Shown here one piece after another: positions 46,845 to 62,363 of a stretch of DNA of 64,000 nt (its first letter is position 1; each line of letters begins with the position of its first letter). The notes beneath the pieces were generated by a model. It was not told the origin of the DNA and ran no database searches. It saw only the letters and a list, made by a program, of their open reading frames with translations. Origin of the DNA: a virus (Duplodnaviria; Heunggongvirae; Uroviricota; Caudoviricetes); the IMG/VR virus record IMGVR_UViG_2529292828_000009; one strand, 5' to 3'. Both the position numbers and the translations under genes were made by a program.

Positions 46845-46867
46845 TCCTGACATGACGCAGTTCTCCC

Positions 46868-47191
46868 TCAGTGTAAAACCGGCTTTTTGATGTGACGGAC
46901 GCATAACTCATCCATTACGGCTATTCCGAGCTGGGAGAGTGCGGGACAGGACATTAGAGGGCCGTATTCCATCAGGTCTGAAAGCAGGGCGCAGGCGATT
47001 TCCATGCCTTTTGTTTGCCCGTGCTGTCGCAGATAAAATCCTTCAAGCTCACGGGCAATAGCGGTTTCAATTTCATCCAGAGTGAGCTGCAGATGGCGGT
47101 TTTGCTGATAGCAGGCACTCAACCAGGCGCAGGCTACCGCGCGGCGATACAACGCTACCCGAAGTGAAAGGGAAAGAGTGCGTGATTTCAT
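46868..47191 (-). CDS. Hypothetical protein of the P4-like left operon
   Basis: 107 aa ORF directly upstream of alpha. Confidence 0.4.
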
Positions 47192-47412
47192 TGCACCACC
47201 TCCATGTTCATGAGGTCATCCTGGCAACGCTGTACCACGCCATCAAGCTGCTCTGTCATCAGATAAATCAGGGAAACCAGTTGTTCACATTGAGCACTGG
47301 CAGGTTTTTCGTAGCAATCCTGAAGAACAGCCATTCCAGTGACAAACTCTCCCACGTTACGAAGATGCTTCAGGCGGAGAATATCGTCATAAGAGATTGC
47401 GGCGTGATTCAT
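47188..47412 (-). CDS. Hypothetical small protein (position equivalent to P4 epsilon; start at internal Met)
   Basis: ORF between immunity region and alpha operon. Confidence 0.35.
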
Positions 47413-47599
47413 TAGATCACCTCCCGGACAGGCAGGCGAGCAGCAAGACAAAGCACATACTCATGGACCAGTGAAAGACGTGCATGATGCTCATTGCTGG
47501 CGATGATACGCAGCATACTGATACGTGGTTTACGTTCTGCACGACGAACGGCGGCAAAAACAAATATAAATTGAGGATGTGACGGGGCGAGGATCGTAG

Positions 47600-47870
47600 C
47601 CATAAGGGCAACCTCCAATAAGTAGCGGTAAATGCCACCACCGGAGTTCCTACGCTCATGGGTGGTGACCCGAACGGGGGTAGGAATACCGGCCTTATTG
47701 GAAACCGGCCAGCCCGAAGGCTGCCCCGCCCGGACCACCATTATCTGAAAGGGGCTAAGGTATAAGCACCGCAGCCCGAAAAATGGGTGTGCCTGAGCAA
47801 CGACGTAAAAAAAGACGCACGGCGCGTCTGGTGTCGCCAATAAGTAACTCGGGTTCCTACGCCCGGCAGC
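47600..47870 (-). ncRNA. Candidate P4-type CI-like immunity RNA region
   Basis: Two direct copies of CCAATAAGTA...GGNGTTCCTACGC (~47615-47655, ~47837-47862) flank a complementary segment GGGGGTAGGAATACCGGCCTTATTGG (~47676-47702); hairpin + T-run on minus strand at ~47796-47828. Confidence 0.4.
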
Positions 47871-47956
47871 CGATTTTGCGGCAGCGGGAAAACTATACCT
47901 GGAAAAGATATCAGGACGCAAGCCAGAAAAAAGGAGATGAGACTGCAAAGCAAGTT

Positions 47957-48217
47957 TCACGCATGGCCTCCTTGCTCGCGGGCAGCAATTCGCGCCGCCA
48001 TCCATGCACTGACCTCCGACTGTACCCAGGCCACATTTTTTCCACCCAGGGATATCTGCTGCGGGAAGGCATCGCGGCTGATAAGGTCGTAGATGGTTGA
48101 ACGGGATAGCCCGCAAAGGTGCATCACTTCAGGTAATCGTATGAAGCGCTCCTGCTGAGCCGGAACCGGGAGCACCGGAGCAGCTGGTGCCGGGGTGGAA
48201 ACGGAAATACTATTCAT
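47957..48217 (-). CDS. AlpA-family transcriptional regulator
   Basis: 86 aa; [23 protein letters not shown] typical of AlpA. Confidence 0.8.
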
Positions 48218-48860
48218 CTGGCTACCTCTCTAATATGTTTACAACAGTCCGGGCAATTCCATGCGGATTCAGGTAGCTCCTTATTATGTTTATATAAGCG
48301 GCTCGCGCATGCTTTATTTATTTTGTGTGAAATGTTGATTTCTCAAAAAATAAAACAGCTAAAAACCGTATGAAACGAACAAAAACAAACAATTCCTTTA
48401 TGGAATATAATAAGGAGCATCAATAATAAAAAAGTCTATTACACTAGGCAGGATCACAGCTCAAATCTGAACCAGCCCATATCATTCAGGGCTTTACATC
48501 ATAAGCACTAAGACAACACCTGATTAATAAAAGAGCCAAAAACGGCCAAAAATAAACAGCTCACCATATGTATCAATAAATCCGATGATTAAAGAAATTA
48601 AATTACCATCTTACTTCCGCATGTATCCGAATGTGTTTAATGAACATCAGACAAATTCATTTTTATGAATATTTTCCTGAAATGCAACTGAGTGCAGGGA
48701 GGTTGAATGTTCAATTATTAAACAGATATAAGACATCTTTTATTCTTTACATAGAATATGTATTGAATACTGGTGAATATTGGTGAGGAGAAAAGATCCA
48801 GTAATAAACTGAAATAAATATCGCGACTTATATGAAAAAGAAATATATGTTTAATTTTAT

Positions 48861-48970
48861 CTCTGTGAACAGTCATGAACAGTAGATGATCACTTTAATT
48901 AAAACACTACACCACTTAACCACATGTATTTACTATATTTTTATTGAAGTGAACAGTAGTGAATAGTATG
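48861..48970. repeat. Cluster of GTGAACAG-like octamer repeats (candidate alpha-binding iterons)
   Basis: gtgaacag / atgaacag / gtgaacag / gtgaatag within ~110 bp of AT-rich intergenic DNA. Confidence 0.35.
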
Positions 48971-49122
48971 TATTAAAGGAAGCGTGTAGATCAGACATGA
49001 CACCTTTCTCTGGCTAGCCAGAACAAGGTCATTGTTCAGTCACTGACACAATCCTCCTCGGTAGTGCGCTTGTATGGACCCCGGCACAATTGACACAACA
49101 ACAAAACACTACCGGAGCAGCC

Positions 49123-49875
49123 ATGACAACTGTTAACCAGATCTCTGATGCAAACATTACCCCCACCCTCCCGCCGAAAATTCGCGAAGCGGTGGAAAAA
49201 GTTAAGGCAGCAAAAGCTGTCTGGCAGGAAGAACGGCGAAAACAAACCGAAGCTGCTGCAATGACTGAAACTATCCGTAAACGTCAGGAAGATACAAAAA
49301 CGGAGACGCAGGCGCTTAATGATGAATGGCGAAACCTGTTTCGTGAGAATCAGGGGAATATGACGCCACGAATGAAAAAACTGCGGGCAGAAATCGCCCT
49401 CGGACGCGAAACACTAGATGAGTTCGAAGATTTGCTGGCTGCTCAGGCTGCAGAAAATGAATTCCTGCCATGGAAAACTGCGGATGCTGCAAACCGCTAC
49501 ATCAGCGAACATAATCACCTGATTGAAACTCATGCAGTGTGGCTCTGGAATGAGTTTATGAAGGAACACGGCCAGAAACTTATTCAGATCCTTGGACTGC
49601 TGAAAATGACTCTGGGCCGAAGCGCATCTTCTGTTATCGGTGTAGTTCATACCGTAAACGACCCCGAAAGTGTGCTGAAGCAATTTATCAGCGAGCAACT
49701 CACCACTCCGGCACTGTTCTGTAACGTATCTTCAACGGATGATATTGCCCTGCCGGGGATCAGCATTTATGCGGACGATAAAGCCATACAGGATGCCAGA
49801 CAATCACCCAGCCCTGCAGCACGTTCCCGGATGCTTAAACAGCGTGACATGGCTAAAGGGGGCGAGAAGGAATGA
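49123..49875 (+). CDS. Sid-like capsid size-determination protein (putative)
   Basis: Coiled-coil-rich ORF directly upstream of psu; GGAG RBS before internal ATG. Confidence 0.5.
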   Translation: MTTVNQISDANITPTLPPKIREAVEKVKAAKAVWQEERRKQTEAAAMTETIRKRQEDTKTETQALNDEWRNLFRENQGNMTPRMKKLRAEIALGRETLDEFEDLLAAQAAENEFLPWKTADAANRYISEHNHLIETHAVWLWNEFMKEHGQKLIQILGLLKMTLGRSASSVIGVVHTVNDPESVLKQFISEQLTTPALFCNVSSTDDIALPGISIYADDKAIQDARQSPSPAARSRMLKQRDMAKGGEKE

Positions 49876-50426
49876 ATACCGGAACCATTACTCAGGAAGC
49901 TCTCAACGATTACCGCGCGGCAATAAAAAGCTGGCTGACACTACGTAATGTGCAAAGTACCAGCCAGCTTCGTCTGGCTGCTTTGCTGGATACTGAAGAA
50001 AAACCCGCAGCATATGCCAGCCAACTTGAGGATCTTCGTGAGCGTCTTGCACTCCTCGAATGGCAGATTAACTGTGCCGCCCGGGATGGTCTTTATGCTC
50101 ACCAGATTGTGCTGGAAAGCTGTGTTACAAGCGCAACTGAAAACTTCATGAGCGAGCATGGTGATGCACTCACTGACGCTCTGGCTCCTTTTCTTTGTGC
50201 ACCATACGGGCTTGAGGCGGCAATGAAAATATTACGAACCGCTGTAGCCCGACAAACGGAAGTCCGTACTCCGGTAATTTCAGCAGCATATAAGAGCATT
50301 ATCGACGAAACCGGATTAACGGTGGATGCATCAATGCGCGCTGATGCTTCAGCCAGTTTCACCCCGGCACAACATAAAGTTTTCCTGGCCCGCCTTAACC
50401 GACTTAATGAAAAAGGAGTGTGCTGA
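49872..50426 (+). CDS. psu: Polarity suppression protein Psu
   Basis: 184 aa; segments resemble P4 Psu as recalled (FTPAQ..., HGxAL..ALAP). Confidence 0.75.
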   Translation: MNTGTITQEALNDYRAAIKSWLTLRNVQSTSQLRLAALLDTEEKPAAYASQLEDLRERLALLEWQINCAARDGLYAHQIVLESCVTSATENFMSEHGDALTDALAPFLCAPYGLEAAMKILRTAVARQTEVRTPVISAAYKSIIDETGLTVDASMRADASASFTPAQHKVFLARLNRLNEKGVC

Positions 50427-50427
50427 T

Positions 50428-50700
50428 ATGGCCCTGAAGTGTCCTGAATGTGGCGCGGTCGCTCACGCCAGAACCAGCGCCTATGAAGCTCCGTCGGTTA
50501 AACGCTCATGGTATCAGTGCCAGAATCTGGAATGTTCCTGCACATTTACCGCACTGGAAAGCGTGGATACGATAATTATGAAGCCTCGGTGCAATGAACA
50601 GGAATCAGACAAAGCAAAAATACCGGAAAAACAACAGCAAACTCTCAATCGCTATGGCTCCGCGTCAAAGCTGTCAAACCGTCAGCAAATTCCTGTCTGA
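50428..50700 (+). CDS. Ogr/Delta-family zinc-finger late transcription activator
   Basis: CPECGAVAHARTS...YQCQNLECSCTF pattern as in P2 Ogr. Confidence 0.8.
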   Translation: MALKCPECGAVAHARTSAYEAPSVKRSWYQCQNLECSCTFTALESVDTIIMKPRCNEQESDKAKIPEKQQQTLNRYGSASKLSNRQQIPV

Positions 50701-50723
50701 TTAGCAAAATACGACCACGAAGT

Positions 50724-50747
50724 CCCGGTCCAGTACCGGGATTTTTT
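50724..50747 (+). terminator. Rho-independent terminator after delta
   Basis: CCCGGT-loop-ACCGGG hairpin followed by T-run. Confidence 0.5.
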
Positions 50748-50791
50748 ACGCCTTTTCCCTGGCTGGCCTGAGAGCGTATGAGTGCATATCT

Positions 50792-50830
50792 ATGGCGCAT
50801 GAAAACGCATGAGTCTCATGCGCCATTTTT
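50792..50830 (+). terminator. Second hairpin + T-run
   Basis: 11-bp stem ATGGCGCATGA/TCATGCGCCAT followed by TTTTT. Confidence 0.4.
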
Positions 50831-51306
50831 GACGCGAAAGCCCTTGTGTGGTGGCTTCTGAGACGATTTACGGGGTGCATGAAAACCAGTCTGTTAAGCG
50901 AAGCTGGCAGGCGGGCGGGGCTGCTCGCGCTAAGGGAGAAAATAGCAAACTCAGCCGCGCAGGCGGTGACAATGATTGACGAGATACTGGCTGGCAGTTG
51001 CTGAAATCTCCGCAATGATTCAAGAACTGCAGTGTATCGATGCAGCACACGTAAACTGAGCGGCGCTACGGGTAATATTTATAGATTTGTCATCCTTAGT
51101 GAGCATGGTTCTCACTCTTGTAACCTCTACCTGTACAAGATATCGTAAGACCTCAGATCAAACATGCACGTGTATTAAAGGTGGGCAAGCGTGGCGGGAA
51201 GATAATTGTGCGCACTGTAGTCAAAGATAGGGATTGTGATTACTTTTTCTTCCAGCCGTGGTGTAGTAAATTATTGGGAACAAACTCTTAATGACATCAA
51301 TGGATA

Positions 51307-52605
51307 ATGATTATGACTACAAATCCGGACGGATACATCTCATTTTTAAAACCCGGTAGTAACGACTGGAAAGCATTAGATAGTAAATCGTTTATTTATT
51401 GGCGAGACTACATAACGAATGAAAGTTTAGAAGAGTCAGGAGATTCTATTTCTCCAGCACAATCTCTTACTGATGGTGAAAAGAAGGAGTTGAAAGACAA
51501 TCAGGCATATATAAACGAACTATTACTAAAATCATTACAATTCCCAAATCTTGCATTCTTCGCTGGGAGTGGTACTTCGCTTGGGGACGTTGGAGGACCA
51601 AGCATGTGGGATCTCTGGAAGTGTGCAATGTGGAGTGAATCTTCTATAAACGAGGATGGTCAATTAAAACCTGATGCTCAAATTGTTTGTGATAAAGTAA
51701 AATATAAAGAGCGAGAGTATCCTAACATAGAACACTTTCTTTCTAATTGTGAAGCATATTTAGCATTTCATGATGATGAAGAAGTGTTGAATTTTTTAAA
51801 TAAAGTTAAAACAATTATTTTAGACAAATGTCGCTCATTTATTGATGATGGCAACTGTGATCTTTCAGCTTACATCAATTTATTACAAAAAATGGGGAGG
51901 AGGAGAGTCAGAGATCCTAGACTAAAAGTTTTCACAACTAACTATGATTTAGCCTTTGAAACAGCTGCTTCTGAATTAGGAATGATGGTAGTTGATGGTC
52001 TTTCATATACAGGAGTTCGCAGATTCGATGGTAAATATTTTAACTACGATGTTGTTAAAAGAGATGAAAACGAGCATGAGTTTGTAGAGGGCGTATTCCA
52101 GTTATTTAAACTCCACGGTTCTGTAAGTTGGATAAGAAAGGATGGGCAAATATATGAATCCAGCCAACCAACAGCAACAAACGCATGTCTAATATATCCA
52201 GCGAAAGGTAAATATCAGCAAGCCTTTATTCAACCTCACTTAGAATTACTTTCAAGATTGTTAGATTTCTTGAGAAAAAGAAATAACTGTTTAGTTATAT
52301 CTGGATTTGGTTTCAATGATGACCATCTTTCTGAACCAATTTACTCAGCAATAAAATCCAATCCAAGCATGAGGTTGATTATAGTAGATTTCAAATGTGC
52401 AACTCATATTCGGAATAAAGGGGGGGACGGTTCTAGTAAATATTGGGATTTACTAAAACAACTCTCACTATCAGGTTATGACATTCACTTCATAAATGCA
52501 TCTTTCAGTGATTTTGTTAAATTAGTTCCCAATCTTAAAGCATTAACCCCAGCAGAACAGTTGGCTAAGGTAATAAAACAAGTAGGAGTTAACAATCAAT
52601 TATGA
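51307..52605 (+). CDS. SIR2-like NADase domain protein (candidate anti-phage effector)
   Basis: Motifs FFAGSGTS...GPSMW, TTNYD and KLHGS resemble SIR2-family NAD-binding/catalytic motifs. Confidence 0.75.
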   Translation: MIMTTNPDGYISFLKPGSNDWKALDSKSFIYWRDYITNESLEESGDSISPAQSLTDGEKKELKDNQAYINELLLKSLQFPNLAFFAGSGTSLGDVGGPSMWDLWKCAMWSESSINEDGQLKPDAQIVCDKVKYKEREYPNIEHFLSNCEAYLAFHDDEEVLNFLNKVKTIILDKCRSFIDDGNCDLSAYINLLQKMGRRRVRDPRLKVFTTNYDLAFETAASELGMMVVDGLSYTGVRRFDGKYFNYDVVKRDENEHEFVEGVFQLFKLHGSVSWIRKDGQIYESSQPTATNACLIYPAKGKYQQAFIQPHLELLSRLLDFLRKRNNCLVISGFGFNDDHLSEPIYSAIKSNPSMRLIIVDFKCATHIRNKGGDGSSKYWDLLKQLSLSGYDIHFINASFSDFVKLVPNLKALTPAEQLAKVIKQVGVNNQL

Positions 52606-54323
52606 TTAATACAACACTACAGCTTGGTATTTTGAGGGGCGACCTTAAGGTTGGAGTAGTCTCATCAATTTTTGCTCAAACAGTTAGAGCAAATTTAATC
52701 TATGCAGGGGAACTCAGCGGAACATATATAGAAGGTTGTAGATATGGAAAAGGAGAAGTTGGTGAAATATTATTAATAGAAGGACAACAATCTATTGTTC
52801 TTGGCCGTTTAATAGAGGTTAAATTACCAGAGCGAGATAGAGGTGAAATATCTGTCGGGTCTCAAGGAAACTTCAAAGTTGATGCTATCGGCATTATACA
52901 ACTTCTTGGAACTATTGATCCTTCAAATTTTAGAATTGATTCAGGAATCAAATCATATCCTCGATTAGGAGATCGAGTTTATTCTGCTCCCTTAGATTTT
53001 ATTTCTTTAATACCAGAATTAATTAATAAAGGAATTAAAGATAACGAGGAAGAAAGAATAGGTATTGTATTAGGCATTATATCTGGAGGGGCAACAAGTA
53101 TAGTAACTGTTGAACCTGATAAACTCTTCGGTCGTCATTGTGCTATCTTAGGAGCTACAGGCGGTGGAAAAAGTTGGACAACTTCCAAGTTAATTGAAGA
53201 GTGTTCGAATTACGAAAACTCTAAAACTATAATAATTGATGCAACCAGTGAGTATAGATCGTTTAAATCTGATTATTGTTTACATTACCATTTAGGTGCC
53301 CCAATAAATAAAAACATAAATTCTTTAGAATTTAGAATTCCACCTACCGACTTTGTTGAGTCAGACTTTATTGCCATGTTCGATCCTTCTGGAAAAGTAC
53401 AGGGTCCTAAGCTAAAAGAAGCGATAAAAAGCCTTAGATTAGTAGCTTTAGAACCTAGAATAGCAACCGATGGTATTTTAAAAAAAATCAATCAACCTAA
53501 AACAGATTATCGACGCGCAATGAATACTGGAGACAACTCTAAACTTGTTGATAATCCATCACAACCATTTGATATAACAAAACTTATAAAACAGATTGTA
53601 CAAGAATGTTGTTACGATAATGGAGATAATACTTGGGGAAACGCTGCAACTCAAGACTTAAGCTATTGCTCATCTTTGTTAACCAGAATTCAAGCAGTAA
53701 CGTATGCCAACTCGTTAAGGTCTGTTTTTAATAGTAACGAGGATATATCCACACTAGGTGAAATATTAGAAACTTTTTTACAATCTGATAAACGAGTCCT
53801 AAGGTTATGCCTAAGTGATGTTAGCTATGAGTTTTATGCTAGAGAAATTTTAGCCAATGTAATCGGCAGAAAACTTTTAACTTTAGCTAGGCTTGAAAAA
53901 TTCAGAACAAGACCGCTGTTAGTTATTGTTGATGAAGCCCATAACTTCCTTGGCAAACGGGTTGGTTCTGAAGATCATGCAATTAAACTTGACGCTTTTG
54001 AGATGATTGCAAAAGAAGGCAGGAAATATGGCCTTAATATATGCTTAACAACTCAAAGACCCAGAGATATCACTGAAGGTGTGCTTAGTCAAATTGGAAC
54101 CTTATTGGTTCATCGCTTAACAAACGACCGAGATCGAGAAGTCGTTGAGCGTGCATGCGGTGAAATTGATAAATCTGCAGCATCTTTTCTACCAAGTCTC
54201 AAACAAGGTGAAGTTGCTCTTGTAGGGGTTGACTTCCCTATTCCTATGACCATCCAGATAGATAAGCCAATATATCCACCAGAATCTGATTCTCCAGGCT
54301 ATTGCAATATATGGAAAAAATAA
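52602..54323 (+). CDS. HerA/FtsK-like ATPase (partner of SIR2-like protein)
   Basis: Walker A GATGGGKS, Walker B LLVIVDEAHNF; start overlaps upstream stop (ATGA). Confidence 0.75.
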   Translation: MINTTLQLGILRGDLKVGVVSSIFAQTVRANLIYAGELSGTYIEGCRYGKGEVGEILLIEGQQSIVLGRLIEVKLPERDRGEISVGSQGNFKVDAIGIIQLLGTIDPSNFRIDSGIKSYPRLGDRVYSAPLDFISLIPELINKGIKDNEEERIGIVLGIISGGATSIVTVEPDKLFGRHCAILGATGGGKSWTTSKLIEECSNYENSKTIIIDATSEYRSFKSDYCLHYHLGAPINKNINSLEFRIPPTDFVESDFIAMFDPSGKVQGPKLKEAIKSLRLVALEPRIATDGILKKINQPKTDYRRAMNTGDNSKLVDNPSQPFDITKLIKQIVQECCYDNGDNTWGNAATQDLSYCSSLLTRIQAVTYANSLRSVFNSNEDISTLGEILETFLQSDKRVLRLCLSDVSYEFYAREILANVIGRKLLTLARLEKFRTRPLLVIVDEAHNFLGKRVGSEDHAIKLDAFEMIAKEGRKYGLNICLTTQRPRDITEGVLSQIGTLLVHRLTNDRDREVVERACGEIDKSAASFLPSLKQGEVALVGVDFPIPMTIQIDKPIYPPESDSPGYCNIWKK

Positions 54324-54326
54324 TTA

Positions 54327-54346
54327 GTAGGGTCTTTGACCCTACT
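54327..54346. terminator. Bidirectional hairpin terminator between convergent HerA-like gene and int
   Basis: GTAGGGTC-TTTG-GACCCTAC with T-rich flanks on both strands. Confidence 0.45.
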
Positions 54347-54361
54347 TTAAAATTTTTAAAG

Positions 54362-55633
54362 CTAGATAGTTTTTTTTGCAAAGTCGTAGGGGGTTATATA
54401 TTCCTGAGTGTTAGCATCAAGATAATCGGCCCACCACTGAACCATTAAACGACGCTCATCCAAATGCTCTGAAGTATGAATATAAGCAGCCCTAACGCTA
54501 TTACGCTCAGAGTGGCTTAGCTGACGTTCTATCGCGTCATCACTCCACAACCCTGATTCGCCCAAAGCACCGCGCGCCATAGTTCTGAATCCATGCCCGC
54601 AAACTTCGGTTTTTGTGTCATACCCCATTGTGCGCAAAGCACTGTTAACCGTGTTTTCACTCATAACTTTAGTTGCGTCATGATCTCCCGGAAACAGTAG
54701 CTCTTTATCACCACTAATCTGCTTAAGCTGCTCTAACAAAATCATCGCCTGCCGACTAAGCGGAACGATATGCTCCTCTTTCATCTTCATCCCACGGTAC
54801 GAGTAACGGACACCTTTAATTTCTTCTCGTTTTGCCGGTATACGCCAAAGAGATTTATCGAAGTCGAATTCATCCCAGCGAGCGAAACGCAACTCACTGG
54901 AACGCACAAAAGTTAGTAAGGAAAGCTCGACTGCAATCCGTGTCATTAAACGGCCACGATATGCAGCAAGACGTGCAAGAAACTCAGGGAAACGGTTAGA
55001 GGGTAAAGCTGGATAGTGTCGTGCTTTGGTTGTCGATAAAGCACCAGCCATATCACTGGCTGGGTTTGAGTCGATATAATCGTTCTGTACGGCATAACGC
55101 ATAATAGCTGTAACACGCTGCTGAAGACGCTGCGCGACGTCATGCTTACCACTGGCATCAACTTTTTTAATCGGGGCTAACAGGTGGCTTGTTTTAAGCT
55201 GGCGGATATCGGACGATCCGATATGAGGGAAGATATAAAGCTCAAGATAGCGAAGAACGCGCGCTCTATGGTCTTCACTCCAGCGCTTGTTACTGGCATG
55301 CCATTCACGAGCGATCGTTTCGAAAGTATATGCCCCCGATTTCTCGGCCTGAGCCGCTTTCTGCTCGGCTTTTGGATCAATACCCTGCACTAATAATCTT
55401 TTAGCTTCATCACGTTTTGCCCTTGCCTGGGCAAGTGTCACAGTAGGCCAAACGCCAAAAGCGAGGCGATCCTCTTTTTTGTCTGAAGGGCGTCTGTATT
55501 TCATACGCCAGTATTTAGATCCCTTGGCCGAAACCTCAAGATACAAACCGCCACCATCGGCCATTTTGTAGGTTTTGTCTTTTGGCTTTGCGGTCTCGAC
55601 CAGTCTGGCGTTGAGCTTCATTTGGGGGCACAT
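54362..55633 (-). CDS. P4-type tyrosine integrase
   Basis: 423 aa; C-terminal R...H..R...Y catalytic pattern; adjacent to att repeat. Confidence 0.9.
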   Translation of the reverse strand: MCPQMKLNARLVETAKPKDKTYKMADGGGLYLEVSAKGSKYWRMKYRRPSDKKEDRLAFGVWPTVTLAQARAKRDEAKRLLVQGIDPKAEQKAAQAEKSGAYTFETIAREWHASNKRWSEDHRARVLRYLELYIFPHIGSSDIRQLKTSHLLAPIKKVDASGKHDVAQRLQQRVTAIMRYAVQNDYIDSNPASDMAGALSTTKARHYPALPSNRFPEFLARLAAYRGRLMTRIAVELSLLTFVRSSELRFARWDEFDFDKSLWRIPAKREEIKGVRYSYRGMKMKEEHIVPLSRQAMILLEQLKQISGDKELLFPGDHDATKVMSENTVNSALRTMGYDTKTEVCGHGFRTMARGALGESGLWSDDAIERQLSHSERNSVRAAYIHTSEHLDERRLMVQWWADYLDANTQEYITPYDFAKKTI

Positions 55634-55784
55634 TTCTAATCGAAGTCAAGATGCCCCTAATTATGCCCCCAATGGCATCCGGATTTCAACGGACAATCTC
55701 GGACGACTCCGGACATAAGAATCACTGTACTCATTGAATTATAAGGAACAATTGGACTTTCTCGGATGATCTTGGAAGTGCTAA

Positions 55785-55808
55785 TGGTGCCGAAGGCCGG
55801 ACTCGAAC
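55785..55808 (-). repeat. att repeat: 24-nt copy of a tRNA 3' end (tRNA-Leu-like), not an intact tRNA
   Basis: TGGTGCCGAAGGCCGGACTCGAAC is the reverse complement of ...GTTCGAGTCCGGCCTTCGGCACCA; sequence beyond it does not continue as a tRNA. Confidence 0.7.
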
Positions 55809-56155
55809 ATCGCAACTATCCTTATGATCTTTAGTAATTAAAGCAATCTACATTGTCGATGATACCATCATTGATACCATCAGACCCGATTGATGATAAT
55901 CGAACAGTAATAAAATATGACTAAACAATTTATGCTTCAACATAAGATTGAATGCTTTGATCTACCATTTTAATGCAGTGGAAAAATTTTTAACACAATA
56001 CTTAAGAAAAATAATTTCATATAAAAACTACATTTCATTTCATATAGTTAACACACCAAAAACAACTGTATATAAACCCAGTAAAAAATGGTAGAATCAC
56101 TATTGTGTTCAATTGTTGAACATTTATAATACATTTGTCGGATAGGGGGGTGTTT

Positions 56156-56743
56156 ATGCAAAGGAACACATACAACAAAGTAGGTCTATACATCCTATCT
56201 TTAGCTATGCTTTTTGTTTTTATTATTATCCTGACTGCCAAAATCCCCTTTTGCTTCACTTCGGATTGTAGCTTCATAGGTTTGAAGAGACTTGTATTAA
56301 CAAATATTGTTCCTATTGTTTGCTTTGTATTTTTTCTATTTAGTATTTATTTTTATAATAGATTAAAAAACATAACAAAATACAATGGACAAGATAGCGT
56401 TAAAATAACATCATGTCAAAGCGAAAGCTATGAAAGTTTAACATTCTTAGCAACATACATTGTACCTTTTATGGGGTTTAGTTTTGAAGACATGCAAAAG
56501 AATATAGCATATCTTTTGCTTGTAGTAGTAATAGGCATTATTTTTATTAAAACAGACAAGTATTATGCGAATCCAACTTTAGCTCTGTTTGGCTTTAAAC
56601 TATACAGGGTAAATATACTACACCCAGGAAGTGGAGAAACAAAAAATCTGATAGCTATTTCAAATGATGTATTAAAAGTGGACGATAATGTTTATTATAG
56701 TTTCTTTGATGAATTTGTTTTTATAGCAAGGAAAAAAATATGA
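56156..56743 (+). CDS. Four-TM membrane protein, KwaA-like (putative Kiwa component)
   Basis: Four hydrophobic helices; GGGGGG RBS before ATG; ATGA overlap with downstream gene. Confidence 0.45.
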   Translation: MQRNTYNKVGLYILSLAMLFVFIIILTAKIPFCFTSDCSFIGLKRLVLTNIVPIVCFVFFLFSIYFYNRLKNITKYNGQDSVKITSCQSESYESLTFLATYIVPFMGFSFEDMQKNIAYLLLVVVIGIIFIKTDKYYANPTLALFGFKLYRVNILHPGSGETKNLIAISNDVLKVDDNVYYSFFDEFVFIARKKI

Positions 56744-57687
56744 CTACTCAGCAGTTAAAAGAAAAAATTTCAAAAATAATTGATAACTTTAGCGGAATCA
56801 GGGTTGTATTTACTACTACTGCTAATGAACTAAAGCTTTCCAGAATTGAAGGGAGTGCATTAAATAGCATAGCTGAAGGGTTTATTGACAAAATCAAAGA
56901 AGACATTATAAATAATGAAGATCTCACCTCACCATTGCTGTCCAATTTTGATGATAGAAAAAATGCCTTGTTTAAATTTGATTACGAACAATATCCTGAA
57001 GAATTTAACAAAATCACTCAGGCCATCGCTATCCCTCCTAACTCACAAGATTATTATAACCCTTTAAATAAATTCACAGATGTGAAAGGAATTATAATTT
57101 TAATAAGTGGAGATAACAAATGCCTGGCTCTTTATAAAAACAAAACTAACCTTGCAGTATTGAGAAATAGCAGAAAAATGTTTAATTTAGTCCCTGACCC
57201 TGATGGATACTTGAAACAACTCCCTAATGAGATATTACGGTTAGATTTCAATTATGATCTATTATCAATTGGTGAGGATTTTTACATTAAAAATCACAAG
57301 ACTCTTGAAACTCAAATGAAATTTCATCAAGTGATTGAAGCCCAGGCAGTTATTGCTTTAAATTCTTTACGGGATTCACTACTAATTGAAGACATATCAG
57401 GTTTAGAAAAGAGTTCGAGAGAAATTTCATTCGCTAGAAAGTTGGCAAAAATCTCCAAACATTCTCCTGTTTTGGGGAAAATAGATACTAAAACAATTAT
57501 CGATTATGTATCCCAACATAAATATTTATCTGCAATACTTCAGATTAATGAAGCAGGAAATAAGTTATTAATTAAAACCAAGACATCACAGAAGCATTTC
57601 ATTAAACTCATGAGCGATGATTATTTACAATCAGATCTAACTAAAATAATATACATGAGCATAGCAAAAGACAGATTAGATGAATAG
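56740..57687 (+). CDS. Soluble ~315 aa protein, KwaB-like (putative Kiwa component)
   Basis: Size and operon architecture match Kiwa; no motif verified. Confidence 0.4.
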   Translation: MTTQQLKEKISKIIDNFSGIRVVFTTTANELKLSRIEGSALNSIAEGFIDKIKEDIINNEDLTSPLLSNFDDRKNALFKFDYEQYPEEFNKITQAIAIPPNSQDYYNPLNKFTDVKGIIILISGDNKCLALYKNKTNLAVLRNSRKMFNLVPDPDGYLKQLPNEILRLDFNYDLLSIGEDFYIKNHKTLETQMKFHQVIEAQAVIALNSLRDSLLIEDISGLEKSSREISFARKLAKISKHSPVLGKIDTKTIIDYVSQHKYLSAILQINEAGNKLLIKTKTSQKHFIKLMSDDYLQSDLTKIIYMSIAKDRLDE

Positions 57688-57700
57688 AATTTTAAGTAGA

Positions 57701-57745
57701 AGTGACAAATATTATAAACCATTCTTGAAATATATTTGTCACTAT
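57701..57745. terminator. Inverted repeat between convergent genes (bidirectional terminator candidate)
   Basis: GTGACAAATAT ... ATATTTGTCAC. Confidence 0.35.
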
Positions 57746-57751
57746 TACTAA

Positions 57752-58423
57752 TCATTCGCGTGCTTGATTATTTATGCTGGATGTTCTAATTGTTGCCGAA
57801 TGCCAATACCCACCACTATATGTTCTTGCTATAGTAATAAATCCAGTACAGGTAATTACTGTCATTAAAATCAGGAAAATATAATAGAAATTAAGCGGAG
57901 CTTTCAAATCAAAAGGAGGTAACGAATACACCAGCAACCCTATCCATACAATAGTTATAAATAAACTAATAATTTGGTTTATCTTAGATACTGATATTGG
58001 AGATGGACCAGTAAGTAAATGAACCGAAAACTCTTTTATTCCTTTCGGTTTTGCACGAGATAACACCACTTTATATAGTGGACCATTAATATTATCTTCT
58101 AACATATCGACATGTTTTTCCCAGTTTCCCTGCCAATATTTACTACCACGGTTAACACAGAGCCAACCGAATGAAAATACAATTCCCAGTGAACACAGTA
58201 ATACGGATAAATCTGTCTTAGCTGTAGAAGAGGAAGTCTGTATAGCAACAAAACCAGCTAAAGTTGCCGCTATAAAAGTCCAGAAATAAGTTGCTCTTTT
58301 CCAGTAATGGTCTATCTCATATTTCCGTATATCTAAAGCCTGTAGCAGAGCATTCTTATTACAGTCTCTATCATTAAGAAAACGGCTACGATATTCCTCA
58401 TCTGAAAATGGAGTAATTGGCAT
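57752..58423 (-). CDS. Four-TM membrane protein co-oriented downstream of the RM fusion gene
   Basis: 223 aa; four hydrophobic helices. Confidence 0.55.
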   Translation of the reverse strand: MPITPFSDEEYRSRFLNDRDCNKNALLQALDIRKYEIDHYWKRATYFWTFIAATLAGFVAIQTSSSTAKTDLSVLLCSLGIVFSFGWLCVNRGSKYWQGNWEKHVDMLEDNINGPLYKVVLSRAKPKGIKEFSVHLLTGPSPISVSKINQIISLFITIVWIGLLVYSLPPFDLKAPLNFYYIFLILMTVITCTGFITIARTYSGGYWHSATIRTSSINNQARE

Positions 58424-58475
58424 ATTGATTTACCTCTATTTATAATAGTAAAAGAGGGGTCCCCCCCCCTCTTTT

Positions 58476-61400
58476 TTAGTTATTTTTAAACAAAACCTTT
58501 ACTATTCCATCTATATCCCTTAGGAAACTCTCGAAAGAGGATCTATTAGCCTTAGCTTCATGAGCCTTTTTTGAAAGTTCAGACAGCTCACGATGCTTTT
58601 TATTACCTTCATCATAAAGAGGAACATTAATTGGAGGTCTGATTTTAAAAGTTCTGCTATCACTGGACTTCAGAATGTACTCCCCAGTGATTGATGAGTT
58701 AAAAATAGCACAAATGTAATGTGCCTCATCCAGGGTAATAAATTTACCATCTTGCCTCTGAGATATACTCACAGCATGGTTCTGAAATAAAGGTCTCTTT
58801 TTGTCACCCCATGGAGTATCCATTTGACTCACAACTGCTGCTGCCCATTTAGTGTTATCACGAAAACAAACAAAATGATCACCATAAGTATATTCACCTA
58901 CACGAGCCAATGCGTAAAATGCAGTAATATTGCTTTTACCTATGATTTTGTCATTGTATCGAGTCTGCGACTCTAATAACTGTTTATTATTAATGAAATA
59001 GTCAGCCAACATAGGGCTTTCTTTAACAAGCTCATCTACAGGTATCGGTTTACGACTCAATTCTCTATATGGAAAGGGTACGAAGAACTCAACATCTTTT
59101 ACCCCAAAAGGTTCAATATTTGTTCCTTTAATCAGGGGGTATATATGCTTGGTTTCAGCAAAAATCATTTGTTTTGCCACTTTATACTTAGACTTGCCAC
59201 CCTGATAATTTTCAAAAATTGCAGTGTTGTTAGCTTTTTTTGTCTTAAATTTCCATAAGAATAATTCTTGAGGGAAAAATTCAATCCCTTCCCTGCCATG
59301 ATATTCGCAATATCCACTGATATTTCTGTAATCATTGAGTTTTTCGGAATCTGAAGCATATGTAAAGGCTGTATTGCTTACACTAACAGTGCCAGCGATC
59401 TCTTTACGGATAGAGAACTCATGCGAAATAGCATTAAAATGCGTATGCTGTGAGTAGCTATCAAGGCTTCTTCCGGTTTTATTTTTCGTCAAAAATGTTA
59501 AAGGTATCCCTTTTAAATAATCGACATTTTTTGACGAGAATAAATAAGTCGCAAACTTGATTGTAACAGGCTTGAATGGATGCCCGGATTCACTCCAGTC
59601 GTATACCTCTTGGAGATATAGTTTTTGGTTATCCCCAAAGTTAAACTCTCGAAATCCTTCATATGTTTGCTGGAAAAGGATATTTTGAGGCATAAGGAAT
59701 GCCAATATGCCATCTTTCTCTAACCAGTTTTCAGCAGATACATTAGAAATTAATGCACAAATGTTAAGGTTTATACCACCAGTAAGCCTATCACCAGAAA
59801 ATAGGCTCCTACTTAAGCATAAGCCTTTAATTCGTTCTCGATATCCTGCAGGTAAATTTTTCCAGTCAATCCATGGTGGATTACCAACAACCATATTAAA
59901 TTTGCCTAAGTTTGCAGTGGTCAAAAAATTAGTGACTATTCTAGCCCAAATTCCATTCCAGTCTCTTTCTTCTAGTTCGACAAACTTATCTGATAAAGTT
60001 TTTAATTTTTCATAAATGCTAGGAGAACTACTAATATCCCCACTTACTTCGATTAATTTTGCAAAAACACTATCACGATCTCGAAGTTTAATATATCGTT
60101 CAATATCAACAATTGCTTTTGAGAACTTATGAGAATCACTCAAAGCTTGAGTAGGCATCTCGATATAAATCGAGCCTTGCAAAGTATTTATTTCGTATCG
60201 CAAACAGTCAATGCCATCAATTATGACCTTTTCTGGAACATACGATGCGTCACCAAGATAAATTGGAATTTCAACTTCGCTACCTTCATCAAGCAAATGT
60301 GATATATTGATGAAATAGTTGATTCTTGCAGTTAAAGCTGCAAGAGGATTTAAATCAATACCTTTGACAGATGTTATGACATCTTTTAATTTAGCTTTGC
60401 TATCAGTATGAGTACGACTCAGAACTTTACCTATTAATGTAATTATAAAGGTTCCGCTACCACAACATGGATCAATTGCAGTCCAGTTGTTCTTATTTAC
60501 AACATGCTCTTCAGCAGAGGATATCAAATGCTCTGCAAGCCATTCAGGAGTGTAAAATTCTCCAAGAGAATGTCTTACTTTATCAGGAATAATGTTCATG
60601 TATAGATCTTTGAAAAGATCGTATACTTTTTCACCCTCTTTGAAAAGGTTTCCTTCCTCATATTCACTTAGTAATGAAAATATATTTTTAATACTAATGA
60701 ATATATCATCTCCCCATTGTTCCTTAGTACAATACCAAGAGAAAAAGTCACCTTCCAGCAGGTTCAAAATCCCATACTTCCTGAAAATAGCACCTTCTTC
60801 TAATGTGTATAAATAGTTTCTCATTGATTCAGAGTTACTATTGATCATATCTGAAAAATTATAATCATTTTCAAATACAAGTCCAGATAATGTTTTATAA
60901 GCTATTATTTTTACAATAATCGCATATGCAGTCTGGAGAGCATAAAGAACTTTATATTCATCATCGTTAGTAAGTAACCTATGACCAGCAATATCTTCAA
61001 GTGATAACTTTCGTTCTAAAATTGCTGTTTGCTGAGATTTATCATCATGTGCAAGTCTAAATAGCTCCTTCCATTCGTTGAAGAGCATTTGAGAGCGGCC
61101 CGTCATGTTATTTTCAAGAGCCGAAAGAAGATTACCTATTAATTGAGTTGTTAAAGATGGAGATCCATAGCAAAAATCATCAACGATGTTTTTTGGATGC
61201 AATGCCTTCTTATTCAAAAGAACTAAAAGCCCGCAAATTTTTTTAATTGCATTCTTATCAAGCGGTTGCAACTTTGATGTTAAAATGCCATCAGTATCAC
61301 GAATAAGGTAATTAATACCGTCTGTTAGCACTCCAACATAGCGTTGATTCCCTTCTAACTTTAAAGAATCAAGGTAAGCCTGGATTTGAAGCACAGCCTT

Positions 61401-61754
61401 ATTAATATCATTATCTTTTTTTAATTTCTCTCTATGCTTAAACTCTATTACTAAAGATCCAATACGACTATCGATACGCCCCTTACTGTTGCTTCTGCCG
61501 GTCGTGTTGTATTTAATACCATCAATAAAAATTTCTTTTTCGGGACGGTAATCAATACCAATGAAATCTTTAATGAAAGGAATAAAAGCAAGGTCGAAAC
61601 CAGAAACAACTTCTGCTTCATTTTTGGCTAAATATGAGGACTCATTAATTTTTTTAGATATAATATCAGCAGCTAAAAGAAAATCTGAGTCAGTAACAAT
61701 CTTTTCTTGAGCTTTGAACTTAATTTTTTTTTGAATTTCTTCTAACACAGCCAT
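58476..61754 (-). CDS. Type IIG-like restriction-modification fusion enzyme (N-terminal PD-(D/E)xK-like nuclease + N6-adenine methyltransferase)
   Basis: EFYTPEWLAEHL, motif I DPCCGSGTFI, motif IV GNPPWIDW; N-terminal D...EFK; ~470 aa C-terminal region as target-recognition domain. Confidence 0.7.
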   Translation of the reverse strand: MAVLEEIQKKIKFKAQEKIVTDSDFLLAADIISKKINESSYLAKNEAEVVSGFDLAFIPFIKDFIGIDYRPEKEIFIDGIKYNTTGRSNSKGRIDSRIGSLVIEFKHREKLKKDNDINKAVLQIQAYLDSLKLEGNQRYVGVLTDGINYLIRDTDGILTSKLQPLDKNAIKKICGLLVLLNKKALHPKNIVDDFCYGSPSLTTQLIGNLLSALENNMTGRSQMLFNEWKELFRLAHDDKSQQTAILERKLSLEDIAGHRLLTNDDEYKVLYALQTAYAIIVKIIAYKTLSGLVFENDYNFSDMINSNSESMRNYLYTLEEGAIFRKYGILNLLEGDFFSWYCTKEQWGDDIFISIKNIFSLLSEYEEGNLFKEGEKVYDLFKDLYMNIIPDKVRHSLGEFYTPEWLAEHLISSAEEHVVNKNNWTAIDPCCGSGTFIITLIGKVLSRTHTDSKAKLKDVITSVKGIDLNPLAALTARINYFINISHLLDEGSEVEIPIYLGDASYVPEKVIIDGIDCLRYEINTLQGSIYIEMPTQALSDSHKFSKAIVDIERYIKLRDRDSVFAKLIEVSGDISSSPSIYEKLKTLSDKFVELEERDWNGIWARIVTNFLTTANLGKFNMVVGNPPWIDWKNLPAGYRERIKGLCLSRSLFSGDRLTGGINLNICALISNVSAENWLEKDGILAFLMPQNILFQQTYEGFREFNFGDNQKLYLQEVYDWSESGHPFKPVTIKFATYLFSSKNVDYLKGIPLTFLTKNKTGRSLDSYSQHTHFNAISHEFSIRKEIAGTVSVSNTAFTYASDSEKLNDYRNISGYCEYHGREGIEFFPQELFLWKFKTKKANNTAIFENYQGGKSKYKVAKQMIFAETKHIYPLIKGTNIEPFGVKDVEFFVPFPYRELSRKPIPVDELVKESPMLADYFINNKQLLESQTRYNDKIIGKSNITAFYALARVGEYTYGDHFVCFRDNTKWAAAVVSQMDTPWGDKKRPLFQNHAVSISQRQDGKFITLDEAHYICAIFNSSITGEYILKSSDSRTFKIRPPINVPLYDEGNKKHRELSELSKKAHEAKANRSSFESFLRDIDGIVKVLFKNN

Positions 61755-62363
61755 CGTTACATCTCTATGTTACATAGCAAATTTCTTATAATTTTACCAC
61801 ATTTCAATAAATATTTCATCATGTTTGTTTGGTATTATCCATACACTTGAGAAAAGTTAATTTCACAATTAAGCAAGGGCTAACTCTCCGAAGCTCCGCT
61901 TCTTATAGTTCCCCTTGATTTTCTTTCTTTCAGTCAGAAAATACAGACATTTCATCATGAAAATTGATAATTTATTTTTAGTATTAAAGTATTATCTCAC
62001 CTTATCGCCGAACCGATTTGAGATTTAGTGCAACTATAAGTATAGTTCCCCTGACAAATAGCTTTCTTATTTAAGTAACGGTTAAACGATAGGGCCTCAC
62101 TACTGGTGCCAATCATGCCATACTCTCAAATGCTACCCCTGCAGACAGGGCTCTACTACCGTAAAGCTGGCATAAAGTATTATAGTTACCTCTCTTAAAA
62201 GGAATTTCTAACTCATGTACCAGATCTACATGAGTTCTACATCCCCCTGATGAACTTAGCAGTGATAGCTAACCGATACTGAAGTGTACTGCTGAGTGAT
62301 TTGACAAATAGAAAATATTAAGCTATAACAGTTGTATCCTACAGGATACAACATGAGAGCATT

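What the first reader, a model, noticed from the sequence alone, without database searches (positions are those of the whole stretch)
58476..61754. Large single-polypeptide restriction-modification candidate (Type IIG-like)
A 1092 aa protein combines an N-terminal PD-(D/E)xK-like signature (D...EFK) with a gamma-class N6-adenine methyltransferase (EFYTP, DPCCGSGTFI, NPPW) and a long C-terminal region likely to be the target-recognition domain. No separate methylase or specificity gene is adjacent, so it would need to be self-contained.
Basis: partly seen in the sequence, partly recalled or inferred. Interest (0 to 1): 0.6.

Follow-up and report, generated by a model that had tools for sequence, protein, structure and literature searches.

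The report
Self-contained Type IIG restriction-modification enzyme
This E. coli gene encodes one large protein that very probably both methylates and cuts DNA at a specific site, an ordinary anti-phage restriction enzyme related to the Thermus enzyme TspDTI, whose target sequence is not yet known.

Summary
The interpretation also holds.

- **Family assignment.** The protein matches a REBASE-derived Type IIG profile almost end to end (E 2e-156). It aligns end to end with the biochemically characterised enzyme TspDTI (27-28% identity, E 2e-92).
- **Structure.** Its predicted N-terminal part is closest to the nuclease-plus-helical parts of the Type IIG/IIL enzymes DrdV and BpuSI. Its MTase and C-terminal part are closest to CamA and M.BseCI.
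- **Conservation.** The nuclease triad D95/E104/K106 and the MTase motifs are invariant in 32 homologues.
- **Autonomy.** In six unrelated genomic contexts the gene stands alone, with no methylase or specificity gene beside it. A copy at 82% DNA identity shares only the gene, its promoter and its terminator.
- **Difference from the Thermus enzymes.** It has a canonical D-ExK nuclease motif, where they have D-ExE.
- **Setting.** It sits with Kiwa and a RipA/8xMP gene in a low-GC mobile cassette, next to a P4-like satellite, near the fim locus.
- **Frequency.** It occurs in 1 of 5426 complete E. coli genomes.

The recognition sequence, the cut distance and the activity itself are all untested. 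This is a new member of a known kind, of modest interest.

The parts
58476..61754 (-). Type IIG restriction-modification gene, 1092 aa, 124.9 kDa
   Evidence: ORF. PADLOC REase_MTase_IIG E 2.3e-156. Pfam Eco57I and N6_Mtase domains above their gathering scores. End-to-end BLASTP match to TspDTI, E 2e-92.
61260..61754 (-). N-terminal PD-(D/E)xK nuclease domain (about aa 1-165); predicted catalytic residues E46, D95, E104, K106
60600..61259 (-). Helical connector domain (about aa 166-385)
   Evidence: All-helical in both models. It corresponds to the helical linker described for TspDTI and BpuSI (PMC3384240).
59550..60599 (-). Gamma-class N6-adenine methyltransferase domain (about aa 386-735): EFYTP 399-403, motif I DPCCGSGTF 428-436, D467, D502, motif IV NPPW 625-628, F727. 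It carries an insert of about 100 aa (about 503-600) between motifs III and IV.
   Evidence: Pfam hits. Motif positions. Invariance across homologues. Equivalence to TspDTI D422/D464/D500/NPPW626/F732. Foldseek hits to CamA, M.BseCI, PglX and DrdV.
58479..59549 (-). C-terminal target-recognition domain plus terminal helices (about aa 736-1092). Candidate specificity loops: FRDNTKW 964-970, FQNHAVSI 990-997, SSDSRTFKIRPP 1030-1041.
   Evidence: Superposes on the TRDs of CamA and M.BseCI. The loops align with the three loops proposed for TspDTI in PMC3384240. The second and third loops stay constant within the window's clade but differ in other clades and between TspDTI and TsoI.
58450..58475 (-). 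Intrinsic-terminator-like hairpin directly after the stop codon (stem AAAAGAGGGG/CCCCTCTTTT, G-rich loop)
   Evidence: Terminator scan and sequence. The hairpin is kept in the copy at 82% DNA identity (L008). The loop G-run varies between copies: G9, G8, G5CG.
61791..61819 (-). Promoter-like site (ATGAAA, 17 nt, TAAAAT, with TG before the -10), 37-65 nt upstream of the ATG
   Evidence: Consensus scan, which is weak evidence on its own. The TGnTAAAAT element is kept in L001, L009 and the diverged L008. The L008 similarity block ends at 61830.

Best explanation
The gene encodes an autonomous single-chain Type IIG restriction-modification enzyme. (These enzymes are also labelled IIC/IIS, and behave like the 'lone' Type IIL enzymes.) It belongs to the same protein family as TspDTI, Tth111II/TthHB27I, TsoI and CchII.

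Domain order: an N-terminal PD-(D/E)xK nuclease (E46, D95, E104, K106), a helical connector, a gamma-class N6-adenine methyltransferase (DPCCGSG, NPPW), and a C-terminal M.TaqI/CamA-like target-recognition domain.

Inferred mechanism, by homology to TspDTI and Tth111II:
- The TRD and MTase domains read a short asymmetric site.
- With SAM bound, the enzyme either methylates one adenine on one strand, which marks host DNA as self, or cuts unmodified DNA.
- Cutting is done by the tethered nuclease at a fixed distance to one side. That distance is 11/9 nt in the characterised relatives.
- Efficient double-strand cutting needs a second site or a second enzyme molecule.

The gene carries its own promoter and terminator and travels as cargo of integrative or mobilisable islands. 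Here it lies in a 6.15-kb low-GC cassette with Kiwa and a RipA/8xMP gene.

Shown here: the ORF, the motifs, the homology, the predicted folds, motif conservation and gene autonomy. Inferred: catalytic activity, one-strand methylation, cut distance, the two-site requirement and the anti-phage role.
For: - **Profiles.** PADLOC REase_MTase_IIG E 2.3e-156 over 90-1070. Pfam Eco57I (36.9 bits against a 25.3 cut-off) and N6_Mtase.
- **Homology to a characterised enzyme.** BLASTP against TspDTI, whose sequence was rebuilt from Additional file 2 of PMC3384240, gives 28% identity over 1111 columns, E 2e-92, co-linear from nuclease to TRD. A MAFFT alignment agrees.
- **Published biochemistry of relatives.** TspDTI has both activities, and the gene was stably cloned in E. 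coli without a separate methylase. Tth111II methylates one strand (CAARCmA), needs two sites and is stimulated by SAM.
- **Conservation.** The catalytic residues of both domains are invariant in 32 homologues of 47-88% identity. D..ExK is kept in 72 of 73 species-level relatives; L083 has E in place of the D.
- **Autonomy.** The gene is solitary in six other contexts. The L008 similarity block covers only 58442-61830. Terminator and extended -10 are conserved.
Against: - No experiment supports activity, and no methylome is available for this strain.
- Identity to any biochemically characterised enzyme is only 27-28%.
- The nuclease loop at residues about 74-98, which ends at D95, is modelled with low confidence: pLDDT below 50 in the full model, and 79-90 below 50 in the N-terminal model.
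- The nuclease catalytic motif of the TspDTI subfamily was itself assigned by bioinformatics, not by mutagenesis.
- The closest REBASE entry could not be consulted.
- A distant separate methylase elsewhere in the genome cannot be excluded.
Confidence: 0.88

Rival explanations
1. The protein is only a DNA methyltransferase. It would be an orphan or epigenetic enzyme whose N-terminal nuclease-like domain is inactive or serves as a DNA-binding or regulatory module.
For: The strongest structural matches are to pure methyltransferases, CamA and M.BseCI. NCBI names homologues only 'N-6 DNA methylase' or 'Eco57I restriction-modification methylase domain-containing protein'. The loop leading into D95 is poorly modelled.
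Against: E46, D95, E104 and K106 are invariant across 32 homologues, and the D..ExK motif is kept in 72 of 73 relatives down to 35% identity. That is the pattern expected under selection for catalysis. The N-terminal fold matches the nuclease halves of DrdV and BpuSI. The characterised homologues TspDTI, Tth111II and TsoI cleave DNA. The gene lies in defence islands beside integrases.
Confidence: 0.07
2. The protein is one component of a multi-gene defence system. It might work together with the downstream RipA/8xMP membrane protein and/or Kiwa, or be a BREX PglX-like methylase needing partner proteins.
For: IIG, RipA, KwaB and KwaA form one 6.15-kb block shared at about 98% identity by three E. 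coli-type islands. RipA is co-directional, 52 bp downstream. There are weak local hits to PglX models, and whole-chain Foldseek hits to PglX/BrxX.
Against: A terminator hairpin separates IIG from RipA. The 88%-identical homologue and five more distant ones have no 8xMP or Kiwa neighbour. No PglZ, BrxC or BrxL genes lie nearby. The PglX hits cover only the SAM-binding motif region (residues 382-483), with NCBIfam scoring 36 bits against a cut-off of 400. PglX lacks the nuclease domain that is present here.
Confidence: 0.04
3. The protein is a Type IIB or Type I-like enzyme that needs a separate specificity (S) subunit, as BcgI does, or a Type ISP enzyme that translocates on DNA.
For: It has a large fused R-M polypeptide with Type I-like domain order. 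There are weak hits to Type I MTase profiles and to the StySJI M protein.
Against: No S gene lies next to it in any of seven contexts. The protein has its own C-terminal TRD of the M.TaqI/CamA type. It has no helicase or ATPase domain.
Confidence: 0.01

Closest known systems
TspDTI subfamily of the 'Thermus family' Type IIS/IIC/IIG enzymes: TspDTI (ATGAA N11/9), Tth111II/TthHB27I (CAARCA N11/9), TsoI (TARCCA N11/9), CchII (GGARGA N11/9)
   Same: Co-linear homology over the whole chain: 27-28% identity, E 2e-92. Same size: 1092 aa against 1112-1116. Same domain order. Cys/Ser-containing motif I (DPCCGSG against DPACGSG). NPPW motif IV at nearly the same position (625-628 against 623-626). Equivalent motif II, III and VIII residues. 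No companion methylase gene.
   Different: It has the canonical D-ExK nuclease motif (D95...E104-F-K106), not the atypical D-ExE that PMC3751577 uses to define the subfamily. The host is a mesophile and the gene is AT-rich. The proposed specificity loops are different, so the recognition sequence is probably different and is unknown. Cleavage distance is untested.
DrdV and MmeI (Type IIL) and BpuSI (Type IIG), the single-chain RM enzymes with solved structures
   Different: Sequence similarity is essentially undetectable. phmmer finds none of them, and a family profile finds only DrdV around motif I, at E 5.5e-05. There is an extra insert of about 100 aa between MTase motifs III and IV.
Eco57I / AcuI-type Type IIG systems (Pfam PF07669)
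   Same: The MTase core matches the Eco57I domain above Pfam's gathering score. NCBI names homologues after this domain.
   Different: From established knowledge of the system, Eco57I is accompanied by a separate M.Eco57I methylase. None is adjacent here. The match covers only residues 463-711.
CamA, M.BseCI and M.TaqI (stand-alone gamma-class N6-adenine methyltransferases with a C-terminal TRD)
   Same: These are the best Foldseek matches for the MTase+TRD part: E about 1e-16, TM 0.6-0.68 normalised to the target. PMC3384240 reports the same relation for TspDTI and M.TaqI.
   Different: They lack the nuclease and helical domains and do not restrict DNA.
BREX PglX/BrxX
   Same: Large gamma-class MTase with an N-terminal extension. 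Whole-chain Foldseek hits at E about 1e-13.
   Different: PglX has no PD-(D/E)xK catalytic motif and works with PglZ, BrxC and BrxL, none of which is nearby. NCBIfam scores 36 bits against a cut-off of 400.

Membership tests
Type IIG restriction-modification enzymes (single-chain R+M) | Endonuclease and methyltransferase domains in one polypeptide | tested here: met
   PD-(D/E)xK fold and invariant D95/E104/K106. Gamma-class MTase motifs and Pfam domains. PADLOC IIG profile E 2.3e-156.
Type IIG restriction-modification enzymes (single-chain R+M) | Own target-recognition domain; no separate S or M gene needed | tested here: met
   The C-terminal domain superposes on the CamA and M.BseCI TRDs. 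No M or S gene is adjacent in the window or in six other contexts. Only adjacency was tested; a distant methylase is not excluded.
Type IIG restriction-modification enzymes (single-chain R+M) | SAM-stimulated or SAM-dependent cleavage at a fixed distance outside an asymmetric site | not testable with these tools
   This needs purified enzyme. It is known for the homologues TspDTI and Tth111II.
TspDTI subfamily (Thermus-family IIS/IIC/IIG) | Whole-length sequence homology to TspDTI, Tth111II or TsoI | tested here: met
   BLASTP E 2e-92, 28% identity over 1111 columns. 27% to both TspDTI and TsoI in a MAFFT alignment.
TspDTI subfamily (Thermus-family IIS/IIC/IIG) | [quoted passage not shown] | tested here: inconclusive
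   The window has DPCCGSG, and relatives have DPC[ACSG]GSG. The Cys-Gly-Ser-Gly core is kept, but the literal motif differs at one position.
TspDTI subfamily (Thermus-family IIS/IIC/IIG) | Methylation motif IV is NPPW (NPPY in the TspGWI subfamily) | tested here: met
   NPPW at 625-628, against NPPW626 in TspDTI.
TspDTI subfamily (Thermus-family IIS/IIC/IIG) | Atypical D-ExE nuclease motif (criterion used in PMC3751577) | tested here: not met
   The window has D95...E104-F-K106, the typical D-ExK. PMC3384240 notes that uncharacterised TspDTI homologues have D-ExK. The protein is therefore a homologue lying outside the D-ExE group, in a sister clade.
TspDTI subfamily (Thermus-family IIS/IIC/IIG) | About 120 kDa monomer cutting at N11/N9 | tested here: inconclusive
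   The calculated mass of 124.9 kDa fits. Oligomeric state and cut position cannot be tested here.
MmeI / Type IIL family | Sequence homology to MmeI-family enzymes | tested here: not met
   No MmeI hit by phmmer or by family profile against PDB sequences. Similarity is at fold level only.
BREX PglX | PglX equivalog score and co-located BREX genes (PglZ, BrxC, BrxL) | tested here: not met
   NF033451 scores 36.3 bits against a cut-off of 400. No BREX genes are among the neighbours scanned.

The most novel reading that the evidence does not exclude
The window protein belongs to a large, cross-phylum mesophilic sister clade of the Thermus TspDTI enzymes. Within this clade the two distal candidate DNA-reading loops are nearly constant, apart from a few members with variant loop residues. 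The clade could therefore be a single widespread 'isospecific' Type IIG enzyme with a recognition sequence not yet assigned. It would be a mesophilic distant-cutting enzyme with a canonical D-ExK site. A further possibility is that its recurrent linkage with RipA/8xMP and Kiwa in E. coli reflects functional cooperation.
Probability: 0.2. Interest if true: 0.4.

Novelty: new member of a known kind. Interest (0 to 1): 0.27.

Why it matters
The practical value is modest.

- It identifies a rare, horizontally acquired restriction barrier in E. coli, found in 1 of 5426 complete genomes. It will shape plasmid and phage uptake and add an m6A motif to the methylome of strains that carry it.
- It links a very widespread but unnamed group of proteins annotated 'Eco57I-domain' to the biochemically studied TspDTI/Tth111II enzymes. 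The group has 949 clusters at 50% identity with E<=1e-30, and relatives in at least 301 species representatives, including archaea.
- That link gives testable predictions for catalytic residues, specificity loops and mode of action.
- A mesophilic relative with a new specificity could be a useful reagent.

It does not challenge current understanding of restriction-modification.

Tried and rejected
- **Plus-strand reading.** Translating the given coordinates on the plus strand gives only stop-rich sequence. The gene is on the minus strand.
- **PDB by sequence.** The search found only weak Type I M-subunit hits. A family profile found only DrdV, marginally. The family therefore has no solved structure, and fold comparison had to rest on AF2 models.
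- **RipA operon idea.** A terminator hairpin separates the two genes, and RipA is absent beside all diverged homologues.
- **Phase variation.** The A9 run at codons 8-10 is in frame and the same length in all four copies. The variable G-run lies in the terminator loop, not in coding sequence.
- **Upstream repeats as a regulatory element.** GGKAACTATA occurs three times upstream of the gene but is absent from the other two near-identical cassettes. Two of the three copies lie in the variable segment beyond 61928. TRF finds no tandem array and the 137-nt units do not align.
- **RNA genes.** Rfam finds nothing in 55500-64000, and there are no tRNAs in the window.
- **Literature.** Searches for 8xMP/RipA as a defence protein found nothing usable. 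The Flavobacterium psychrophilum RM paper did not identify a related enzyme with a known site.
- Alignment A1 used window:58476-61751, which drops Met1 rather than the stop codon. A1 and the full-length model are numbered one lower than the true residue numbers. A2 and this report use the true numbers.
Full report
**1. Observation**

The ORF listing reports an ATG-initiated ORF of 1092 aa at 58476..61754 on the minus strand. The plus-strand translation of the same coordinates is full of stops; the minus-strand translation is open. In 200 shuffles of the 8.4 kb around it, the longest stop-free run was 164 codons, so the ORF is not a chance product.

- GRIDSRIGSLVIEFKH at 92-107, giving D95, E104 and K106
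- EFYTP at 399-403
- DPCCGSGTFI at 428-437
- NPPW at 625-628

The gene has 34% G+C, against 50.5% in the first 44 kb of the window.

**2. What it is: sequence evidence**

- Pfam finds the Eco57I domain (PF07669, 36.9 bits, cut-off 25.3) and N6_Mtase (PF02384), both above their gathering scores.
- PADLOC's REBASE-derived profile REase_MTase_IIG (PDLC03630) matches residues 90-1070 against positions 56-1054 of 1100, at E 2.3e-156. Two further full-length RM profiles also match.
- NCBIfam gives only weak local hits, including PglX at 36 bits against a cut-off of 400.
- A search of PDB sequences finds nothing but a weak Type I M subunit. A family profile reaches only DrdV, around motif I, at E 5.5e-05. 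No member of this family has a solved structure.

**3. Link to characterised enzymes**

A paper on the Thermus enzymes TspDTI, Tth111II/TthHB27I and TsoI (PMC3384240) lists DPACGSG, NPPW626, D422/D464/D500 and F732 as their motifs. These positions nearly coincide with those in the window protein.

I rebuilt the 1112-aa TspDTI sequence from Additional file 2 of that paper, and the 1116-aa TsoI sequence from Additional file 3.
- BLASTP of the window protein against TspDTI gives a single co-linear alignment from residue 28 to 1081: 28% identity over 1111 columns, E 2e-92.
- A MAFFT alignment gives 27% identity to both TspDTI and TsoI.
- Equivalent residues are D428, D467, D502, NPPW 625-628 and F727.

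What is known about these relatives:
- TspDTI is a purified monomeric enzyme with both restriction and methylation activities. It is stimulated by SAM and sinefungin, and the gene was stably cloned in E. coli without any separate methylase.
- Tth111II methylates only one strand (CAARCmA), nicks the top strand as a monomer, and needs two sites for efficient double-strand cleavage.
- All characterised members cut at N11/N9.

One feature differs. PMC3751577 distinguishes the TspDTI subfamily by an atypical D-ExE nuclease motif, whereas the window protein has the canonical D-ExK. PMC3384240 had already noted that uncharacterised TspDTI homologues carry D-ExK. The window protein is therefore best placed in a sister clade of the characterised D-ExE enzymes, within the same protein family.

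**4. Structure predictions**

*Full length.* With a 32-sequence alignment the AF2 model has mean pLDDT 82 and pTM 0.74. Against the PDB, Foldseek finds:
- CamA and M.BseCI first, covering MTase plus TRD (E about 1e-16, TM 0.6-0.68 normalised to the target)
- then whole-chain matches to BREX PglX/BrxX and to the single-chain RM enzyme DrdV

*Caveat.* The loop leading into D95 is poorly modelled. pLDDT is below 50 over about 74-98 in the full model (its numbering runs one lower than the true numbers), and over 79-90 in the N-terminal model.

**5. Conservation and family size**

- The word-indexed search found 1945 relatives. The best 120 are nearly all 1080-1110 aa and 47-59% identical over 95-100% of the query.
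- In 32 of them, E46, K73, E74, D95, E104, K106 and all MTase motifs are invariant.
- The exhaustive HMMER search found 949 50%-identity clusters at E<=1e-30.
- A scan of one genome per species found 301 relatives. They span Bacteroidota, Bacillota, Pseudomonadota, Verrucomicrobiota, Patescibacteria, Campylobacterota, Elusimicrobiota and archaea such as Methanobacterium.
- Across 73 full-length species-level relatives, D..ExK is kept in all but one; L083 has E in place of the D.
- By domain, the MTase core is the most conserved part. TRD residues 961-1040 are almost as conserved.

*Candidate specificity loops.* PMC3384240 proposed three specificity loops for TspDTI: WTRLAK, PQET and KSMGS.
- They align with FRDNTKW (964-970), FQNHAVSI (990-997) and SSDSRTFKIRPP (1030-1041) in the window protein.
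- The second and third loops are nearly constant in the clade that contains the window protein, down to about 39% overall identity. A few members (L014, L016, L029, L058) carry variant loop residues.
- The first loop stays similar (FRDNTK) in the next clade as well, so it does not discriminate between the two.
- Other clades have different second and third loops: CAKHAPYIS with RSYSID, and CVKHTIIIS with NGYSLKK. TspDTI and TsoI, which have different specificities, also differ from each other here.

I infer that these loops read DNA, and that the window's clade shares one recognition sequence or closely related ones. What that sequence is cannot be derived with the tools available.

**6. Autonomy and context**

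No methylase or specificity gene is adjacent. Homologues stand alone, usually beside a P4-type integrase or a relaxase and with unrelated neighbours, in:
- Vibrio fluvialis
- Flavobacterium piscis
- Lentibacillus salinarum
- a metagenomic contig with a 57%-identical homologue
- a contig with an 88%-identical homologue

*Gene boundaries.* A hairpin with a T-run (58450-58475) follows the stop codon directly. An extended -10 (TGGTAAAAT) lies about 40 nt upstream of the ATG. Both are kept in the copy at 82% DNA identity, L008. L008's similarity to the window covers only 58442-61830, that is gene, terminator and promoter.

*Host and island.*
- The window is E. coli: the fim genes match at 100%.
- The gene occurs in only 1 of 5426 complete E. 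coli genomes, strain BA22372, at 98.6% identity. There the same IIG-RipA-KwaB-KwaA block lies next to nanS/nanM/nanC/fimB.
- The shared block is 55778-61928, at about 98% identity.
- Between it and nanS/HNH, this window also carries a P4-like satellite at 44520-55633, with SIR2-HerA in its hotspot.

**7. Rivals**

- *Methylase only.* This is disfavoured by strict conservation of the nuclease triad and by the fold match, but only experiment can exclude it.
- *Part of a multi-gene system with RipA, Kiwa or BREX.* This is disfavoured by the terminator, by the absence of these neighbours beside diverged homologues, and by the absence of BREX genes.
- *Type IIB, Type I or Type ISP.* These are excluded by the built-in M.TaqI-like TRD, the lack of an S gene and the lack of an ATPase domain.

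**8. Verdict**

The gene is a self-contained Type IIG restriction-modification enzyme. It is a mesophilic relative of the TspDTI/Tth111II group with a D-ExK nuclease motif, carried on a mobile defence cassette. It is a new member of a known kind. Its specificity, cut position and activity remain to be measured.

Noticed in passing
window 44520-55633: A P4-like satellite prophage. It has a primase-helicase (44520-46904), DUF5375, Ash, two Psu-like genes (49090-50426), Ogr/Delta (50326-50700) and a P4-type integrase (54362-55633). A SIR2 (51307-52605) plus HerA (52602-54323) defence pair sits in the low-GC slot between Delta and the integrase.
   Followed up: partly
window 56135-57687: A complete Kiwa system: KwaA at 56135-56743 and KwaB at 56740-57687. 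Both score above the NCBIfam equivalog cut-offs. The pair is convergent with the RipA and IIG genes.
   Followed up: partly
window 57752-58423 (-): A 223-aa membrane protein of the Pfam 8xMP family (PF24838, E 1e-39), which NCBI annotates as 'RipA family octameric membrane protein'. It lies 52 bp downstream of the IIG gene, beyond a terminator hairpin. It accompanies the IIG gene only in near-identical E. coli islands, and it has no PADLOC hit. I found no usable literature, so its role in the cassette is unexplained.
   Followed up: partly
window 62364-63135: Overlapping DUF4160 (62364-62621, 85 aa) and DhiA-like antitoxin (62596-63135, 179 aa; NF048016 at 133 bits, below its cut-off of 200) genes. 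This is probably a DhiT/DhiA-type toxin-antitoxin pair. It lies in a segment (61929-63895) that differs between otherwise similar islands.
   Followed up: partly
window 61904-61913, 62041-62050, 62181-62190 (- strand): GGKAACTATA occurs three times, on the same strand and spaced 137 and 140 nt apart, and nowhere else in the 64-kb window (0.11 expected). A second 11-mer, ATTTCATCATG, repeats at 136-nt spacing. The motif is absent from the two other near-identical cassettes, so it is not part of the IIG gene unit. It may be a set of protein-binding sites belonging to the variable segment or to the mobilisation region.
   Followed up: partly
window 63478-63882: A 134-aa ORF with weak ribbon-helix-helix and NikA-like hits (E about 0.1). 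DNA similarity to the relaxase-proximal region of related islands resumes at 63896. The cassette therefore probably belongs to an integrative mobilisable element whose relaxase lies beyond the end of the window.
   Followed up: no
window 61725-61733 and 58459-58467: An A9 run at codons 8-10 of the IIG gene is in frame and the same length in all four copies examined. A G-run in the terminator loop varies between copies: G9 here, G8 in L009, G5CG in BA22372.
   Followed up: yes
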